From Eledone cirrhosa (lineage: Eukaryota), in NCBI GenBank assembly GCA_964016885.1, contig OZ024740.1, forward strand, positions 334,304,001 to 334,368,000: 64,000 bases of DNA. The letters are read 5' to 3'. Shown one piece after another: positions 5,750 to 63,199 of this stretch. Every line of letters begins with the position of its first letter. Positions within the stretch are counted from its first letter, which is position 1. The translations under genes and the position numbers were made by a program. The notes beneath the pieces were generated by a model, which was not told the DNA's origin, did not search any database, and was given only the letters and a program-made list of their open reading frames with translations.

Positions 5750-6138
5750 CGACAGACGCTGTGTTTGATACATGACAGTGGAAGAGGGGAAGGAAAGCTA
5801 TATGTAATTAACATGTGTGCGTGTGTGCGTGCGTGCGCGGGTGTGTGTGTGTTCGTGCAGCGTTCCAGTAAGAGTTAAATCTATTAACATGTGTGTGTAC
5901 GTGCACATGTGCGTGCGTGAGTTTGCGTGCGTTTGAGCGTTTGCGTGCGTGAGTGTGTGTGGGTGTGTGTACGTGCATGTAGCGTTTCACTTATGCCATT
6001 TTTTTCAGTGACAGTAGTTGTTGTCGATTATAATTTATTCATACCCTACAACATAAATGTAAATGATCTGGGAAAACCAAGTGAAAGAAACGTAGAAGGA
6101 ATGAACAATAATGAAAACCCAGATAACATTGGAAAAGT

Positions 6139-9057
6139 ATGCATTTAACTTCAACCTTCGAAGGAAGTCCCCGTTGTGTGCATTCAAGAACCCAGGACGC
6201 GATGACATATGTGCGCGAGTACGGCAAACCAGACATATTTATTACTTTTACATGCAATCCTTCGTGGAAAGAAATTGCCCATGAACTCCTTCCAGGACAA
6301 CAGCCCAGCGGTCGCCATGACCTCTCATCCAGAGTCTTCGAGCTAAAAGTATACAAACTAATGGACCTTATCACAGAGGGTCAGGTATTTGGACGTGTGC
6401 AATGTTACATGTACACAATTGAATCGGGGACTCTCCGATGCTCACATTCTTATTTGGTTGTCGTCAAAAATAGAGAGCAGACGATATCGACAAGATTATA
6501 TCCGCAGAGCTTCCAAACCAGCAAACTGACAAAACCCTATTTGACATGGTTACGGCGCACTTGGTTCACGGTCAAAAATACCCAAAAGCCTTTTTTCGCG
6601 GAACTCAAACTGCTGATGACGGATACCTATCATACAGACGAAGAACCCCTTAGACGGAGGATTAACAGCACTGGTTGGAAAACATGAAATTGACAACAAG
6701 GCGTTCAACTACCACATAAATGTTGAATAGTGCAACTCAATTAAATCAATCAAATATGTCTGCAAGTATATAAATAAGGGCCCGGATGCCGCCATGTTCG
6801 GGTTTAAAGAAGAAAATAAACGGGATTAAGTTGCACAGTACCATTCAGCACGATATATAAGTACCAGCGAGGCCTTTTTACGAATTTACCGTTTCTCAAT
6901 GCACAGAAGATACCCTGCCGTCCAACACCTTGCTGTGCACCTGGAAAACGGCCAAAGAATGTACTATACAAAACAAACATCTTTTCTGAGGGCTCTGCAA
7001 CCAAGGAACACAACTCTTACTGCATTCTTTCAACTATGTCAAGGCGACGCATTCGCTCGCACTTTGCTGTATCCCCAAGTCCCCTCTTTCTACAAATGGG
7101 AAAAGTATTCATGGAAGCCAAGAATCAAAGGTCATCCTGATTTTAACTTTGACAGCTGCCTGGCGCGAGTTTACACAGTGCCCCGCATCTGACAAGAATG
7201 TTACTACCTACGTATGCTTCTCCATGACGTAAGAGGTCCTATCACTTTTCAACACCTAAGAACTGTTGATGGCCAAATTTGCGACACGTACAGAGAGGCC
7301 TGCCTGAGGTGTGGACTACTGGAAGATGGTGCTCAGTGGGATGCCACTTTGGCAGAAGCAGTTGTTTCACAAATGCCACACAGCCTGAGGAAGCTTTTTG
7401 CTGTCTTACTGTACATTTGTTAACTGCCCGATCCTTCCTTCTTGTGGCTCAAGTACAGAGATGACCTCTCTGAGGACTTCAGACATCAAGCACAATTACA
7501 AATTCCTGACATGGAAGTAGGCTTCACACATGAAATCTACAACAAAGCACTTATTGAAATTGAAATATGATTGCTGCAATGGGTGGGAATGCACTGTAGA
7601 CATATGGCCTGCCCCAAACCAACAGGACAGGCTCCGACGTCATTTCCGCAGAAACACTTCGAGAACTATCCTACGACACTGACAGCTTGGCTACATATGT
7701 CACTGAACATGAACCAATGCTGCTGCAGGAACAGGAACGAACATATAACACTATTGCTGACTGTGTCCATCGTCGTACGGGAGGAATCTTTTGCTTTGAC
7801 GCACCTGGAGGCACAGGGAAGACGTTTGTCATACGGCTTCTCCTTGCCAAGGTTCGACAACACAGACACATAGCACTTGCTGTTGCGTCTTTCTGTATTG
7901 CAGCAACCTTGCTTCCTGGGGGGCAGGACAGCACATTCAGCCTTCAAACTCCCCCTCAATATGACAGTAAATGACACACCCTGCTGTTATATTACCAAAT
8001 GATCAGAAAAGGCAGAACTGCTTAAAAGGTGTAAACTTATAGTTTGGTACGAATGTACCGCGGCTCATAAAGGAGCTTTGGACGCACTGGACCGGAGTTT
8101 AAGAGACAAAAGAGACTCCCAGGATCCCACGGGAGGCGTGCCTGTCCTTTTATCCGGAGATTTTAGACAAACCCTCCCTGTTATTCCCAACGGAACAAGG
8201 GCTGATGCTATTCGAGCATGCTTAAAGTCATCTCCGCTTTGGTATTATGTCACAATATTAACGCTCTCTACGAACATGAGAGCTCTGATGCTTGGTGACC
8301 AAGTGTCATCAGGTTTTGCTACCAACCTATTGACACTTGGGAACGGCAAAGTGCCACTTGATGAAGATGAAAAAATCTCCCTCGAACCGGTCTGCACTTT
8401 AGTCTACAGTGCTGACGACTTGACAGATGCAGTATTCCTTGAGTTGAGCACTAACCACCAAATCCAAACTGGCTGTGCGAAAGGGCAATATTGGCTCCGA
8501 AAAATGAGACTGTCGACAAAATCAACGGACTACTGCTTAAGTCTCTTCCTACAGCTTCGTGTACATACAAGTCCATCGATAAAGTCACAGACCCCATTAA
8601 CTACCCAATTGAGTTTCTTAACTCATTGACCCCCCCCCCCGTGTTTCCATCTCATTGATTGGAACTTAAGAAAGGATGCCCAATTATGCTTTTGAGGAAT
8701 CTACACCCACCAAAACTCTGCAACAGCACCCGCCTTACAGTAAATAATCTAACGCAAAACTTGATCGAGGCGACGATTCTCTCGGGGTGTGGAAAGGGGG
8801 AAAATTCCCCTTTGTCCGTCAACATCAGAGATCCTCTTTTCATTCAGGAGGCTCCAGTTTCCAGTTCGTTGTAGTTTCGCTATGACGATAAATAAGTCTC
8901 AGGGGCAAACATTGTCCATCGAATAAACCTAGAAGAGCAATGCTTTTCGCCCGGTCAGCTATACGTTGAATGTTCCAGAGTGGGAAGCAAAAGAAACCTT
9001 TATGCATTTGCTCCAAACAGTAAAACCAGAAACATTGTGTACCAAGAAGTTCTGTAA
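6139..9057 (+). pseudogene. Helitron RepHel (HUH Rep + PIF1-like SF1B helicase), frameshifted, N-terminus missing
   Basis: Rep motifs GSPR...QDAMTYVREYGKPDIFITFTCNP, KYPKP..DGY..YRRR and LAVHLENGQR. Helicase motifs FDAPGGTGKTF, LSGDFRQTLPVIP, LSTNMR, PIMLLRNL.PPKLCN.TRL, FAMTINKSQGQT, ending RNIVYQEVL* at 9057. Confidence 0.92.
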
Positions 9058-19584: not shown

Positions 19585-21636
<2,052 letters not shown>

Positions 21637-31469: not shown

Positions 31470-32520
31470 CCCAATGTGCCTCAAATAAAACCCATCCCAA
31501 ATGAAATAAGAAAATTGTCAAAAACATAGAGAGAAGATGACGTTAGGAAAGTTTAAAATGGAAATAGAACTATAATGATTAAGCGCCAACTCCAACGAAA
31601 GAAAGTTAAAGTCATTCGACCAACAACAACCCAAATCTAAGTACATCCGAAATTTTATAAAGGGCCAGACCACGACAGTGAAAATGCCATCATATATAGA
31701 AATGCCAATGAAAGAAAAATTGTGTAAGTTCATTTTTCAGACCAAGGCAACAAGATCCACGACACCAGGTTGTACAAACCGATGTTGAAAAACCGCAAAT
31801 AATCAATCTTTCAAGAAATTAAAAATTAAAATCCTCTCAAAGGGAATAAAATTCTCCTCAACAATACAATACTCTTACTTCCATGAGTTAAACGATGCTA
31901 TTTCACACGTCTGTAGAAAATTATGTCTAACAAAAATAAAGCTACTACAAACCGACAAACGACAGGAACAGTGTTTTAGACAAATATTCCGATCAGGTAT
32001 CAACTTTCCCACACCATGAACTAGCACAGTCTAAACCCAAACCAAACACCAATCGAAGGGAATGGGAGATTATTCATGGGTTAAAAAACAATAATGACAT
32101 CATAATTAAGGAAGTGGATAAGGGTAGTGCCCTCGTCATTATTGATTCTGAACACTATAAAACTCTATATTCACTCATTTACAATACACTACCTACTACG
32201 AAAAGGTAAAACAACTATCAACCATCAAAAGCGAAGGTCTCATTAAATACACTCATTTCTCAACACAGAAAACACTTATCTATAGAGGAACACGAATATT
32301 TAACACATTTTGAATGCAGAACCATCAATCTTTACAGACTTCCGAAAACGCACAAGAGCAAAATGAGTAACGATGACTGTAAATAATCCACCTCAACCTG
32401 TGTAAACATATTACACCCCGCTAACCTTGAATTATGTCCAATTGTAGCCGGGGACAAAATGTGAAAGACATAGATAGACGAAGCAACTTTATAGACATAT
32501 TAACAAAATAATTCTTCAAC
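31470..32520 (+). mobile_element. Decayed Neptune-type Penelope element related to 60145-62880 (ORF1 end and RT N-terminus)
   Basis: HFSDQGNKIHDTRLYKPMLKNRK* matches the ORF1 end. Then KPKPNTNRREWEIIHGLKNNNDIIIKEVDKGSALVIID, HFECRTINLYRLPKTHK, PIVAG. Confidence 0.85.
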
Positions 32521-43781: not shown

Positions 43782-43914
43782 TATACATATATACATATAT
43801 ATATATACATATATATATATACATATATATATATACATATATACATATATACATACATATATATATACATATATACATATATATACTAATATACATATAT
43901 CGATATATATATGC

Positions 43915-45165
<1,251 letters not shown>

Positions 45166-45168
45166 TTA

Positions 45169-45270
<102 letters not shown>

Positions 45271-57495: not shown

Positions 57496-57673
57496 GAGGA
57501 GGTTATAGTTCACTTGAAGCATTGTGTAATGAGGTATAAACGTTAGAATATGTGTAATAAGGCCAAGACAATGCAGATATGGACATAGAAAAAAGAATGC
57601 AATAGTGAGAGATATTGATGTGAATTCGTCTTTCACATCAATATTGTCTTGGCCTTATTACACATATTCTAAC

Positions 57674-58962
<1,289 letters not shown>

Positions 58963-59093
58963 GTGAGGTTTTTTTTACAAAATGAAAAATAACCGAGGTG
59001 TCCTACACGAGTGGAAGTATAAAGAAAAAGGGATGAAATCGAAAATGCAACTGAAGTCTTATTTTTTTTTAAAATATATATATTTATTTGGTT

Positions 59094-59131
59094 CCTTTAC
59101 CGGTTTCGCAGTTCTTCTGCTTTTCAAAAGG
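59094..59131 (-). ncRNA. Minimal hammerhead ribozyme (U3/A8 variant) in the PLE 3' UTR; inverted copy 63007-63044 (+)
   Basis: cctt UUGAAAA gcag aagaa cugc GAAA ccgg UA aagg, followed by AATAAA. Confidence 0.78.
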
Positions 59132-59620
59132 TGAGTTGAGATGGAGGGTCTGTGGTTTTTCTCACATCTGGTTGGTCTCTAAATGTTACTTGTTTTATAT
59201 GGAAAAACTGGCTCGAAGACCAGGTAATTTGATTGGTTTGTCAATAATTATAATAAATTTCGCGCCAGTTCGCGTTACAATAGTTCTTCAAATAAGAGAG
59301 GGGGGGGGGGGTTGTCACATGTTGTTTTTTCATATATGAGTGTTTGAATTTCTTTTTACTTGAAAAAATGAGGCTCACGAAGGCTGTTTTTTGGTTGGTT
59401 ATAAATGAAATTTGGCTGTCACGTGAACAAGTTTTCATTACATTTTTGCGCCCTTATTTGGAAAACTATTCTGTAGTCTTTATAGTGAATGTTATGACAA
59501 TGGAGAGATAGTGGTCAAGGGAAAAGGGATTGGGAGAAATGTTCTGGTTCAGTGAATATGGCCAGCTGTCAGAGTTCAGATTTTCTATTGAGACTGAAGA
59601 TATGTGTATATTTGTGTGCT

Positions 59621-59655
<35 letters not shown>

Positions 59656-60144
59656 ATGTGTGTATTGGAAGATGATTCTATTAGTAGAGATGGGGGAGGG
59701 AGTTGTGTGTGTGTGTATATGGGTGGTATGTGTGTGTGTGCGAGTATGTTAGATAGAGAGAATATATATTTTTTGTGTGTGTGTATATATATATGTGTGT
59801 AGGAAAGTGTTTCTATTAGTAGAAATGGGGAGGGTGTTGTAGGTGTGGGTGTTTTTATGTGTGTGTATGGGTGTTATGTGTGTGGGAGTATGGTTAGCAT
59901 GTTAAGATGAAGAGAATATATATATATATATATATATTGTGTGTGTGTATGTGTGTGTGTAGGAAAATGATTCCTTTAGTAGGAATATTTTTGAATGAAC
60001 ATATTTTCCTGACTTTTTCGTGTTTGCTGTTGTATTGCCAGTGCAAACGTATGTTTAAGGTTTATTTAGTTCGGGTTTTTATTTTCTAAAGTAGGTGTTA
60101 TGTGTGTGTGTGTATGTCATATTGTGGTGTTGACATAATGTATA

Positions 60145-62415
60145 TTAAACCTTATTTAATGTTGGTCTATATTTTTGAATAAACATATTTTCCTTATTTA
60201 TTCGCATTTGTTCTGTTGTATTGTTGGCGCAAATGTAAAATGGGAAGACTTGGAATTTGGGTGTCTTATTACTTGCGCAAATGTCTAGATGTGCACTTAG
60301 TGGTATTTGTCTCGTGGTTGGATCTCGTAATTGTTGGCGATGAACTGTCATTCTGTTTCTGAGTGTGAGTTTAGTTTGTCCTATATAATCTTCATTGCAT
60401 CCTTTACATTTAATGGCATAAATTAGATTTTTTGATGAGCAAGTGAAGTGATTTTTTACGGTAAAATTTTGTCCTGATTTAAATGTATACGTGTTGCCTT
60501 CAATGAGGTGAGTGCAGGTTCCACAATTAGAGCGACCATATTTTTTGATACTTGGTTGTGGGTTTGTGGTAGGTAATTTGGCATTGGTGAGTAATGTTTT
60601 CAGTGATTTTGGTTGTCTTTTGCTTTTGATTATTTTGTGTGTTTCAAGGGCTTTTTTCATTCTTGGGTTTTGTTTTAGTAGTGGGATGTTATTGTGAATA
60701 GTGTTGTAAGCTTCCGCATTTCTTGGGTTGTGTGTTGAGATATATGATAGAATATTGGACGTACCTTGAATTTGTTTCTGTTTCCGTAATTCATCAATGC
60801 CTATTGCTTTAGCCCTTTCTATTCCATTATTTATTAGTAATAGTGGGTACTCTCTCTCAAGTAGAATTTCCTTTAATTCTTGAAGTCTTTTATTTCGCGT
60901 TTCATAATTGGAGACAATTGTGCAAATTCTTCTTGCTAGGTTAAAAGGAATGTTCGTCTTCGTGTGCTTTGGATGGTTGGAGGTGAATAGCAGATATTGT
61001 TTGGAATCTGTTGGTTTGTAGTGTATGTCAGTTTCGATATTTGTGTCTTTTTTTGTGATTAAGATGTCCAGAAATGGGAGTTGATCTTGGCTGTATTCCA
61101 TTGTGAATTGGATGTGGTTATTGATGCCGTTTATTAAGTTTTTGAAATCCTTCAGTTGGTCGAGTGTGTGGGACCAAAGAATGAGGCAATCATCCAAGTA
61201 GCGTTTCCAATTCTCTGATAAATATTTGTGGAAGTTCAATCCGTATTTTGATTTGGACTGTTCATATATCTGGACTTCTAAGTATGCCATGACTAAGTTG
61301 GCATAAGTTGGAGCGGCTTTTGTGCCCATCGCAGTCCCCGATATTTGCTTGTAAGTATTGCCATCGAAATCAAAAAAGTTGTTCTGTAGGATGAATTTTA
61401 ATCCCTTGGTGATGAACCTTTTTTCTATTCTGTCAGGTATCTCATTGGGATATTTCTCTAGCCAGAATCCTATTGCTTCTAGTCCGTATTGGTGTGGGAT
61501 CGTTGTGTAGAGACTCACTACATCGAAAGACACAATAATAGTGTCGTTGTTGACATGTTTGGGGAGGTGGTTTAAGAGGTCCAGATCGTCTCTTACAAGG
61601 CTTGGTATGTGTTTCAGTATTGGTTTCAGTAGTATGTCTATAACGTTGCTCAATCTGTGTGTTTCACATTGTGGGCCCGCTACAATTGGTCTTAATTTAA
61701 GGTCTGTGGGGTATTGTGTGTTCACGCAGGCTGAGGTGGATTGTTTACAGGCATCGTTGATTATTTTACATTTGTGGATCTTCGGAAGTCCGTAAAGGTT
61801 GCTGGTTTTGTATTCAAAATTTGTTAAATAATCGCGTTCCTTTTTAGTTAGGTCTTCCTGGTATCGATAAATCAGTGTGTTTAATTTGGTCATTATTTTT
61901 GATTGCTGGTAGTTTTTTACTCTTTCATAGTAATTAGCATTTTGTAAGAGAAAGAACATAGAATTTTTATATTTTTCAGCCTCCATAATGACAACAGTAC
62001 TTCCCTTGTCCGCTTCCTTAATTACAATGTCCGGATTGTTTTTTAGTTCATGGATAATCTCCCATTCCCTTCGACTTGTGTTGGGTTTGGGTTTAGGTTG
62101 CGGTAGTTCATGGTATGGGAAGGTAGCTATGTGGTCACAAAATTTGTCCAGAACTCTGTTTCTACCGTTTGTTGGGTTGTAGCTGCTTTTATTCCGTACA
62201 ATTGATTCGTCGTTATTCTCCTTGTCAAAGAATTCCTCTGTGAGACGTAATTTTCTACAGAAGTGTGAGATATCGTCATTTATCTCGTTGGGGTTAGGAT
62301 ATTGTGGTGTTGGTGTGAATTTCAGACCTTTGGAGAGAATTTTCACTTGTTGGGCTGAGAAGTTTCTATTTGAAATGTAAATTATTTTCGGTTTTTCAAA
62401 ATCGGTTTGTGCCAC
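60145..62415 (-). CDS. Penelope-type reverse transcriptase with C-terminal GIY-YIG endonuclease (756 aa open; true start probably via upstream frameshift)
   Basis: LSKGLKFTPTP, IKEADKGSTVV, YGLPKIHK, LRPIV, SFDVVSLYT, GTAMGTKAAPTYANL, RYLDD, LPFLDI. Cys linker (Y)GRSNCGTC. LIYAIKCKGC.EDYIGQT..LRNRMTVH. Confidence 0.95.
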   Translation of the reverse strand: MAQTDFEKPKIIYISNRNFSAQQVKILSKGLKFTPTPQYPNPNEINDDISHFCRKLRLTEEFFDKENNDESIVRNKSSYNPTNGRNRVLDKFCDHIATFPYHELPQPKPKPNTSRREWEIIHELKNNPDIVIKEADKGSTVVIMEAEKYKNSMFFLLQNANYYERVKNYQQSKIMTKLNTLIYRYQEDLTKKERDYLTNFEYKTSNLYGLPKIHKCKIINDACKQSTSACVNTQYPTDLKLRPIVAGPQCETHRLSNVIDILLKPILKHIPSLVRDDLDLLNHLPKHVNNDTIIVSFDVVSLYTTIPHQYGLEAIGFWLEKYPNEIPDRIEKRFITKGLKFILQNNFFDFDGNTYKQISGTAMGTKAAPTYANLVMAYLEVQIYEQSKSKYGLNFHKYLSENWKRYLDDCLILWSHTLDQLKDFKNLINGINNHIQFTMEYSQDQLPFLDILITKKDTNIETDIHYKPTDSKQYLLFTSNHPKHTKTNIPFNLARRICTIVSNYETRNKRLQELKEILLEREYPLLLINNGIERAKAIGIDELRKQKQIQGTSNILSYISTHNPRNAEAYNTIHNNIPLLKQNPRMKKALETHKIIKSKRQPKSLKTLLTNAKLPTTNPQPSIKKYGRSNCGTCTHLIEGNTYTFKSGQNFTVKNHFTCSSKNLIYAIKCKGCNEDYIGQTKLTLRNRMTVHRQQLRDPTTRQIPLSAHLDICASNKTPKFQVFPFYICANNTTEQMRINKENMFIQKYRPTLNKV

Positions 62416-62870
62416 CGGGTGTCGTGAGTCCTGTAGCCTTGGTCTAAAAAATGATTTTTCTGGAATGTTTTTTCATTGGTATTATTATATCTAATGGTAT
62501 TTCCCCTGTTGTTGTGTGGTCTTGTATAGAAGTTTCGGACGTATTGAGGTTCGGTTTGTTGATAGTCCGGGTTGTAGATTTGGTTCCTTTGTGTGGGTTG
62601 GAATCTATGGTTTTGGAACAGGCTCTGTGTGGGCAGGGGTCTACGGTTTGGGAATAGGTTTTGTGTGGGTTGTGATCTGCGGATCAGGTCCTGCCTTGTG
62701 TTCGGGGATCTTTGGTTTTTGTTAGTAGGGTTATAGTTTTGTCTATGGTTTCTGGGATTATCGTTATGGTTTTGCTGGGGGTATGTTGGACGTTTTGTTA
62801 CTTTTTTTGTTATTTGTTGTGCATGTGGTGTGCATGTGGCGCGAAATTTGTTGTGCATGTGTTGTGCATG
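62382..62870 (-). CDS. C-terminal part of upstream ORF1 of the PLE (N/Q/R/P-rich), overlapping the RT ORF
   Basis: Open frame ending NHFLDQGYRTHDTRWHKPILKNRK*. The same ending is conserved in the decayed copy at 31731-31802. The 5' part was lost at the inversion junction. Confidence 0.6.
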   Translation of the reverse strand, partial: HAQHMHNKFRATCTPHAQQITKKVTKRPTYPQQNHNDNPRNHRQNYNPTNKNQRSPNTRQDLIRRSQPTQNLFPNRRPLPTQSLFQNHRFQPTQRNQIYNPDYQQTEPQYVRNFYTRPHNNRGNTIRYNNTNEKTFQKNHFLDQGYRTHDTRWHKPILKNRK

Positions 62871-63199
62871 TGGCGCGAAATTTATTATAATTATTGACAA
62901 ACCAATCAAATTACCTGGTCTTCGAGCCAGTTTTTCCATATAAAACAAGTAACATTTAGAGACCAACCAGATGTGAGAAAAACCACAGACCCTCGATCTC
63001 AACTCACCTTTTGAAAAGCAGAAGAACTGCGAAACCGGTAAAGGAACCAAATAAATATATATATTTAAAAAAAAAATAAGACTTCAGTTGCATTTTCGAT
63101 TTCATCCCTTTTTCTTTATATATATATATATATATATGCCTGGCCGAGTCGGCCGAGATCGTCAAGTTGAAATCGGTCGTAAACTCGAGATCAGATATA

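What the first reader, a model, noticed from the sequence alone, without database searches (positions are those of the whole stretch)
59094..59131. Natural U3-A8 compensatory-core hammerhead ribozyme in the Penelope 3' end (six copies)
Seen: cctt-UUGAAAA-gcag aagaa cugc-GAAA-ccgg-UA-aagg at 59094(-), 63007(+), 21064(+), 21276(-), 21391(+) and 20151(-, A9G). Stem I (cctt/aagg), stem II (gcag/ctgc), palindromic stem III (ACCGGU) and a GUA site are all perfect, but the CUGANGA box reads UUGAAAA. Established: C3 and G8 form a tertiary Watson-Crick pair in the active hammerhead fold, and U3-A8 can substitute; minimal PLE hammerheads with palindromic stem III cleave as dimers. Inference: this is a functional variant that standard CUGANGA motif searches would miss.
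Basis: partly seen in the sequence, partly recalled or inferred. Interest (0 to 1): 0.78.

Follow-up and report, generated by a model that had tools for sequence, protein, structure and literature searches.

The report
Penelope hammerhead with published U-A core
A 38-base hammerhead-shaped RNA motif with a swapped but still paired core sits in the repeated end of a very abundant Penelope-like jumping gene; it likely cuts itself only slowly and in pairs, and this kind of core swap was already described in 2011 and 2014, so it is an ordinary example.

Summary
Observation confirmed: five exact copies and one A9G copy, from three inverted-pair insertions of a young Penelope-like element (RT plus GIY-YIG). 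The genome holds 6,009 exact copies; the 98 variants at positions 3 or 8 change one side only, none to C3-G8. In related elements elsewhere, 19 of 19 distinct motifs found with positions 3/8 left free are Watson-Crick paired (C-G 15, U-A 2, A-U 1, G-C 1). It is a real minimal type I hammerhead, but not new: natural U3-A8 cores (Perreault 2011) and U3-A8 Penelope hammerheads with the same UUGAAAA box (Cervera 2014) are in print, and this scan has noted the kind in other genomes. Cleavage is untested. Additions: 81 of 191 copies begin about 70 bases upstream of the cut site, so the motif likely lies in the RNA's 5' leader and most templates were uncut; a weak excess of junctions falls at the cut site; a U3-A17 pair is predicted to compete with the active fold.

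The parts
59094..59131 (-). minimal type I hammerhead motif, U3-A8 core, in the downstream pseudo-LTR; predicted cut between 59098 and 59097
63007..63044 (+). same motif in the inverted upstream pseudo-LTR of the same insertion; predicted cut after 63040
21064..21101 (+). same motif, short-tailed half of an ORF-less inverted pair
20151..20188 (-). motif with A9G, long-tailed partner of 21064; likely a decayed copy
21276..21313 (-). same motif, short-tailed half of a second ORF-less inverted pair
21391..21428 (+). same motif, long-tailed partner of 21276
60148..62472 (-). 775-codon open frame (ORF2): reverse transcriptase plus GIY-YIG endonuclease, DKG, GTAMG, YLDD motifs; the frame opens after a stop codon; zinc-linker first Cys is Tyr in this copy
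62382..62832 (-). 3' remnant of ORF1 (400 aa in full copies), overlapping ORF2, which is in the -1 frame
62445..62451 (-). U-UUU-UUA heptamer in the ORF1 frame, predicted -1 frameshift site, with a predicted hairpin 7 bases downstream (62437-62411)
58951..60147 (-). downstream pseudo-LTR with microsatellites, motif and tail; copies end 79 or 147 bases after the predicted cut (about 59019 and 58951), joined to (TA)n
59164..59170 (-). position at which many genomic copies begin; inferred main 5' end of the template RNA (likely transcription start)
62871..63120 (+). inverted, 5'-truncated pseudo-LTR, 99.2% identical to 59018-59267

Best explanation
The motif is a minimal type I hammerhead with a U3-A8 core carried in the pseudo-LTR of a young Penelope-like retrotransposon, and it likely cuts itself after GUA only slowly, as a pair of motifs joined through the ACCGGU palindrome and likely with help from the element's protein. 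Shown: anatomy, position, copy number, family-wide U3-A8, 3/8 covariation among relatives. Inferred: the element's RNA starts about 70 bases upstream of the cut site, so the motif is in the 5' leader; reverse transcription starts 79 or 147 bases downstream of the cut site and mostly copies uncut RNA; a small share of RNAs is cut. Inferred: the six window copies are likely inert, because each has a near-identical inverted partner that would pair with it in a read-through transcript.
For: Core, G10.1-C11.1, palindromic stem III and NUH all present. 6,009 exact copies, reversed-pattern control 0; 59 of 59 position-3 variants keep A8 and 39 position-8 variants keep U3; 78 of 79 copies picked by an anchor outside the motif have U3 and A8, the other ends before it. 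An older subfamily (10,766 matches to a 14-mer, control 48) has the same core with a shorter stem I. In 124 loci of related elements, 19 of 19 distinct sense-strand hits at the strict score and 26 of 28 at the loosest are Watson-Crick at 3/8; 10 shuffles gave 0 and 3 hits. A second, unrelated U3-A8 family in this genome (293 matches) shows a palindrome-keeping double change in stem III. Two copies are predicted to pair through the palindrome with probability 0.92-1.0, dimer -20.3 versus monomer -6.4 kcal/mol. Junctions exactly at the predicted cut: 42 of 95 examined versus 16 of 88 at a control base 6 upstream, about 132 versus 28 genome-wide. 81 of 191 copies start 63-77 bases upstream of the anchor just 3' of the motif. 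Literature: dimer-only, low activity of PLE minimal hammerheads (PMC4209133); protein-assisted cleavage and use of unprocessed RNA in the anole element (PMC11167929); U3-A8 active in vitro (as cited in PMC3088659).
Against: No cleavage or RNA data: untested. Stem I is only 4 pairs (3 in the older subfamily) and its predicted probability falls from 0.51 to 0.07 as flanks grow to 80 bases. U3 is predicted to pair with A17 in 0.4-0.6 of the ensemble, and that fold is 1.4 kcal/mol below the active-like dimer; the analogous C3-G17 pair is a proposed trap (PMC3884650). The extra base between positions 9 and 10.1 of the published consensus is absent. Within the family, selection on the motif was not demonstrable: shared variants at 1 of 38 motif sites versus 20 of 234 flank sites, p = 0.33. 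The junction excess rests on one control site and is inflated because A bases from (TA)n targets can mimic a break at the cut site; a few junctions are two views of one event. I did not see a cleavage test of a U3-A8 Penelope hammerhead in the papers read.
Confidence: 0.62

Rival explanations
1. The motif descends from a hammerhead but no longer cuts at a meaningful rate; it is carried passively in the leader, or kept as an RNA pairing or protein-binding structure.
For: Weak stem I, predicted U3-A17 trap; fewer than 1 in 100 copies break at the cut site (about 132 counted against at least 16,000 copies); no measurable excess conservation inside the family; hammerhead mutants do not affect insertion in vitro in the anole element; Naiad elements thrive without the motif (PMC8557442).
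Against: All 11 core positions are intact and unchanged between subfamilies; strict Watson-Crick covariation at 3/8 among relatives points to selection on the active fold; junction excess at the cut site.
Confidence: 0.22
2. The ribozyme cuts efficiently in vivo, unit-length RNA is circularised, and circles are the main template (model of Cervera and De la Pena).
For: Tandem copies longer than one unit exist (motifs 4,679 bases apart in L047), and a re-ligated circle would let cDNA run through an intact motif.
Against: The dominant 5' boundary 70 bases upstream of the cut (81 of 191 copies) needs a linear, uncut RNA; read-through of tandem copies explains long inserts as well; the anole element uses unprocessed RNA.
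Confidence: 0.14
3. The resemblance to a hammerhead is chance in an AT-rich repeat.
For: Six copies are one family, so one event; a loose descriptor gives 9 hits in 40 shuffles; no Rfam match.
Against: It lies exactly where related elements carry the motif, has the published UUGAAAA core, and only 2 shuffle hits in 40 have a palindrome this long.
Confidence: 0.02

Closest known systems
Minimal hammerheads of metazoan Penelope-like elements, U3-A8 variant (Cervera and De la Pena 2014, PMC4209133; read main text parts 1-2 of 4 and supplement 2 part 2 of 3; supplement 1 could not be read)
   Same: Type I, short stem I, palindromic stem III, position in the pseudo-LTR, U3-A8 covariation; the Schistosoma mansoni(4) entry has the same UUGAAAA core.
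   Different: Stem II is 4 pairs instead of 6-8, no extra base between 9 and 10.1, a 6-base palindrome, and A17 (which can pair with U3) where that entry has U17; very homogeneous (6,009 identical copies).
Natural U3-A8 hammerheads (Perreault et al. 2011, PMC3088659; passages)
   Same: Same compensatory core change, reported as natural.
   Different: The passages seen do not tie them to Penelope elements or to the dimer type.
Hammerhead of the anole Poseidon element PAc (Frangieh et al. 2024, PMC11167929; main text parts 1-2 of 4)
   Same: Motif at the pseudo-LTR/ORF junction, two reverse-transcription start sites downstream giving a 'tail', unprocessed RNA as main template.
   Different: C3-G8 core overlapping the start codon; single ORF; tail 30-40 bases versus 68 here.
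Neptune/Nematis-type endonuclease-positive Penelope-like elements (Craig et al. 2021, PMC8557442; passages and a supplement word search; figures not seen)
   Same: C-terminal GIY-YIG, CX2-5CxxC linker, (TA)n targets, inverted 5'-truncated partner, tail; an ORF1 separated by a frameshift is noted in the legend of their Fig. 1.
   Different: Which clades carry the frameshifted ORF1 could not be read from the legend; no pseudoknot was found here, only a hairpin.

Membership tests
Minimal type I hammerhead of Penelope-like elements | 11 core positions with a Watson-Crick pair at 3-8 | tested here: met
   U3 U4 G5 A6 A8 A9 G12 A13 A14 A15.1 U16.1; 3/8 covariation in relatives
Minimal type I hammerhead of Penelope-like elements | Stem II closed by G10.1-C11.1 | tested here: met
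   pair probability 0.8-0.92 with up to 40 flanking bases, 0.58 with 80
Minimal type I hammerhead of Penelope-like elements | Short stem I closing the motif | tested here: inconclusive
   4 pairs present (3 in older subfamily) but predicted probability 0.51 falling to 0.07 with flanks; no compensatory change seen in it
Minimal type I hammerhead of Penelope-like elements | Palindromic stem III allowing a dimer | tested here: met
   ACCGGU; predicted intermolecular pairing 0.92-1.0
Minimal type I hammerhead of Penelope-like elements | NUH cleavage triplet | tested here: met
   GUA; U3-A17 pairing is a predicted competitor
Minimal type I hammerhead of Penelope-like elements | Extra base between 9 and 10.1 (consensus trait, not universal) | tested here: not met
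   absent here; also absent in two printed entries (Marsupenaeus, Saccoglossus 2), so not defining
Minimal type I hammerhead of Penelope-like elements | Location in the pseudo-LTR of an RT-endonuclease element | tested here: met
Minimal type I hammerhead of Penelope-like elements | Site-specific self-cleavage | not testable with these tools
   only an indirect junction count
Endonuclease-positive Penelope-like element | RT with DKG motif and C-terminal GIY-YIG | tested here: met
   Pfam RVT_1 E 1.5e-6 (just under its cut-off), GIY-YIG E 1.6e-6; motifs
Endonuclease-positive Penelope-like element | Pseudo-LTRs, partial tandems, inverted partner, optional tail | tested here: met
Neptune/Nematis clade | CX2-5CxxC linker between RT and endonuclease | tested here: met
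   48 of 50 matches in overlapping loci have the first Cys; the window copy has Tyr
Neptune/Nematis clade | Placement in the clade on an RT tree with named references | not tested
   no named reference sequences were fetched

The most novel reading that the evidence does not exclude
The genome itself records how often this ribozyme cuts in vivo: a U3-A8 core combined with A17 gives a self-damped hammerhead that cuts about 1% of the templates, while about 40% of insertions copy the intact leader back to the transcription start; and Penelope-like elements have naturally sampled all four Watson-Crick pairs at 3-8 (A3-U8 and G3-C8 each seen once).
Probability: 0.3. Interest if true: 0.45.

Novelty: new member of a known kind. 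Interest (0 to 1): 0.22.

Why it matters
As filed, it matters little: U3-A8 Penelope hammerheads are published. What Penelope hammerheads do is still open (PMC8557442, PMC11167929). This family is a good test bed: at least 16,000 young copies, many with an open RT frame, whose ends map the template's 5' end, the two reverse-transcription starts and possibly the cut site, so ribozyme activity could be tied to insertion outcome.

Tried and rejected
Rfam scan: no hammerhead family match. DNA similarity search of the genome with the motif region found nothing because common words are skipped; exact patterns were used instead. A canonical-core version with the same palindrome: 3 matches genome-wide, no family. 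An intron joining ORF1 to ORF2 (CAG-GT ... TAG, 420 bases): rejected, it stays in the ORF1 frame in the 19 loci where both sites were found. Search for RNA runs: no RNA holder listed; the contigs laid are not on record as RNA and the cut-site region was skipped as repeat. First metagenome scan with the single protein found no relative. Within-family conservation test: inconclusive. No H-type pseudoknot was convincing after the slippery site. ORF1 has no Pfam match below E 0.49. Papers not held and so not read: Lunse 2017 (PMC5785218), Przybilski and Hammann 2007 (PMC1986816), Nelson and Uhlenbeck 2008 (PMC2151028); they may contain U3-A8 rates or natural A3-U8/G3-C8 examples. Searches for natural A3-U8 or G3-C8 returned one paper, mentioning an engineered G3-C8; this is not proof of absence from print.

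Full report
Observation. The motif is exactly as reported: five identical 38-mers and one with A9G. A descriptor leaving positions 3 and 8 free finds the five intact copies, against 9 hits in 40 shuffles of the window, 2 with an equally long palindrome. Rfam gives no hammerhead among 128 matches at E up to 1. Self-comparison shows three insertions, each an inverted pair with one long-tailed and one short-tailed end joined to (TA)n.

Host element. The copy at 59094 lies downstream of a 775-codon frame with RT and GIY-YIG domains. The genome (3.0 Gb, G000) has many near-identical copies; 131 of 7,971 candidates were scored at 93-100% identity. Fuller copies show the unit: motif, 169 bases, start codon of a 400-aa ORF1, then ORF2 in the -1 frame, then the pseudo-LTR with the next motif 4,679 bases on. 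The window copy lacks most of ORF1. The zinc linker typical of Neptune/Nematis elements is present in 48 of 50 matches (overlapping loci). Copies end 79 or 147 bases after the predicted cut, as expected from two reverse-transcription starts (PMC11167929, main text parts 1-2).

Is U3-A8 the family state? Yes. 6,009 exact copies. With the rest of a 35-base pattern fixed, 59 copies differ at position 3, all keeping A8, and 39 differ at position 8 with U3: scattered single changes, no C3-G8. 78 of 79 copies chosen by an outside anchor have U3 and A8 (30 loci plus 40 stretches, of 11,635 matches). An older subfamily, 10,766 matches to a 14-mer, keeps the core but has a 3-pair stem I. Conservation inside the family does not prove selection: shared variants at 0 of 11 core, 1 of 38 motif and 20 of 234 flank sites after dropping a T/A run of 11 sites, p = 0.33.

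Covariation outside the family. In 124 loci of related elements from metagenomes and mis-binned genome contigs, sense-strand motifs with 3/8 free were Watson-Crick in 19 of 19 distinct cases at the strict score (C-G 15, U-A 2, A-U 1, G-C 1) and 26 of 28 at the loosest; 10 shuffles gave 0 and 3 hits (all 3 happened to be paired, so the shuffle controls the count, not the pairing); antisense hits were few and mixed. The U-A, A-U and G-C cases flank RT-endonuclease frames; A-U and G-C are single contigs. In G000, other families carry C3-G8, and a second U3-A8 family of about 320-base tandem units (293 matches) shows a double change that keeps its stem III palindrome.

Mechanism. Stem III cannot close in one molecule; two motifs are predicted to pair through ACCGGU, matching the dimer-only, low activity reported for such motifs (PMC4209133; review PMC6765202, passages). 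Against fast cutting: weak stem I and a predicted U3-A17 pair in about half of the ensemble, by analogy with the proposed C3-G17 trap (PMC3884650, passages). The insertions give indirect evidence. 81 of 191 copies in loci not chosen by the upstream anchor, and 38 of 68 in those that were, begin 63-77 bases upstream of the anchor next to the motif, most within 59164-59170, joined to target DNA or to an inverted partner. I infer that this is the RNA's main 5' end, likely the transcription start, so these cDNAs came from uncut leaders, as in the anole element where unprocessed RNA is the main substrate. Junctions exactly at the predicted cut were 42 of 95 examined (of 298 matches) versus 16 of 88 (of 153) at a control base, about 132 versus 28 genome-wide, p = 0.0002. 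This is only suggestive: one control, first-listed matches only, A microhomology with (TA)n inflates the count, and restricting to junction bases free of that effect leaves about 50 versus 23. The window's six copies are each matched by an inverted copy 93-99% identical, so I infer they would be sequestered in read-through RNA.

What is known. Natural U3-A8 cores: Perreault 2011 (passages). U3-A8 in Penelope pseudo-LTRs, with its own descriptor and about 1,300 hits, and a printed UUGAAAA example: Cervera and De la Pena 2014. Searches for 'U3-A8' and 'U3A8' with 'hammerhead' returned that paper and nothing, respectively. Three relevant papers were not held. Earlier notes of this scan report the same kind in other genomes with the same verdict; none matched this sequence.

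Verdict. Real feature, correctly read, new member of a published kind; activity untested and likely low. Interest 0.22.

Noticed in passing
window 62382-62472 (-); L047:1759-2961; L135, L136, L137, L140, L144, L216: The element has a 400-aa ORF1 overlapping ORF2 in the -1 frame with an in-phase U-UUU-UUA site and a hairpin 7 bases downstream. 6 of 8 relatives examined have an upstream overlapping frame and an in-phase U-UUU-UU(A/G); ORF1 is homologous in L136 and L137. A conserved -1 frameshift is predicted; Craig 2021 mentions a frameshifted ORF1 in a figure legend.
   Followed up: partly
L093-L104, L040, L058 (G000): Second U3-A8 hammerhead family in about 320-base tandem units with a long stem I, a 12-base palindrome with a compensatory double change and C17; resembles a non-LTR retrozyme; no RT match in the 12 loci.
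   Followed up: partly
L179:1969 and L190:117: Single Penelope-type motifs with A3-U8 and G3-C8 cores next to RT-endonuclease frames; I found no report of these as natural in one search.
   Followed up: partly
window 19757(+), 19690(-), 48611(+): Hammerhead motifs of other families with the usual C3-G8 core (19690 has U3-G8), palindromic stem III.
   Followed up: no
window 31618-32502 (+): Decayed older copy of the same kind of element, 71% identical in DNA, 48% in protein.
   Followed up: partly
window 6127-6684 and 8003-8626 (+): Open frames that by eye resemble Helitron Rep and PIF1-type helicase segments (label recalled, not tested).
   Followed up: no
window 43784-45270 and 57659-58862: Another repeat family in inverted and tandem arrangements ending at (TA)n, into which the main element's tail is inserted.
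   Followed up: no
L215-L258: 44 stretches encoding Penelope-like proteins lie in contigs filed as bacterial genomes, probably host DNA in the bins.
   Followed up: no
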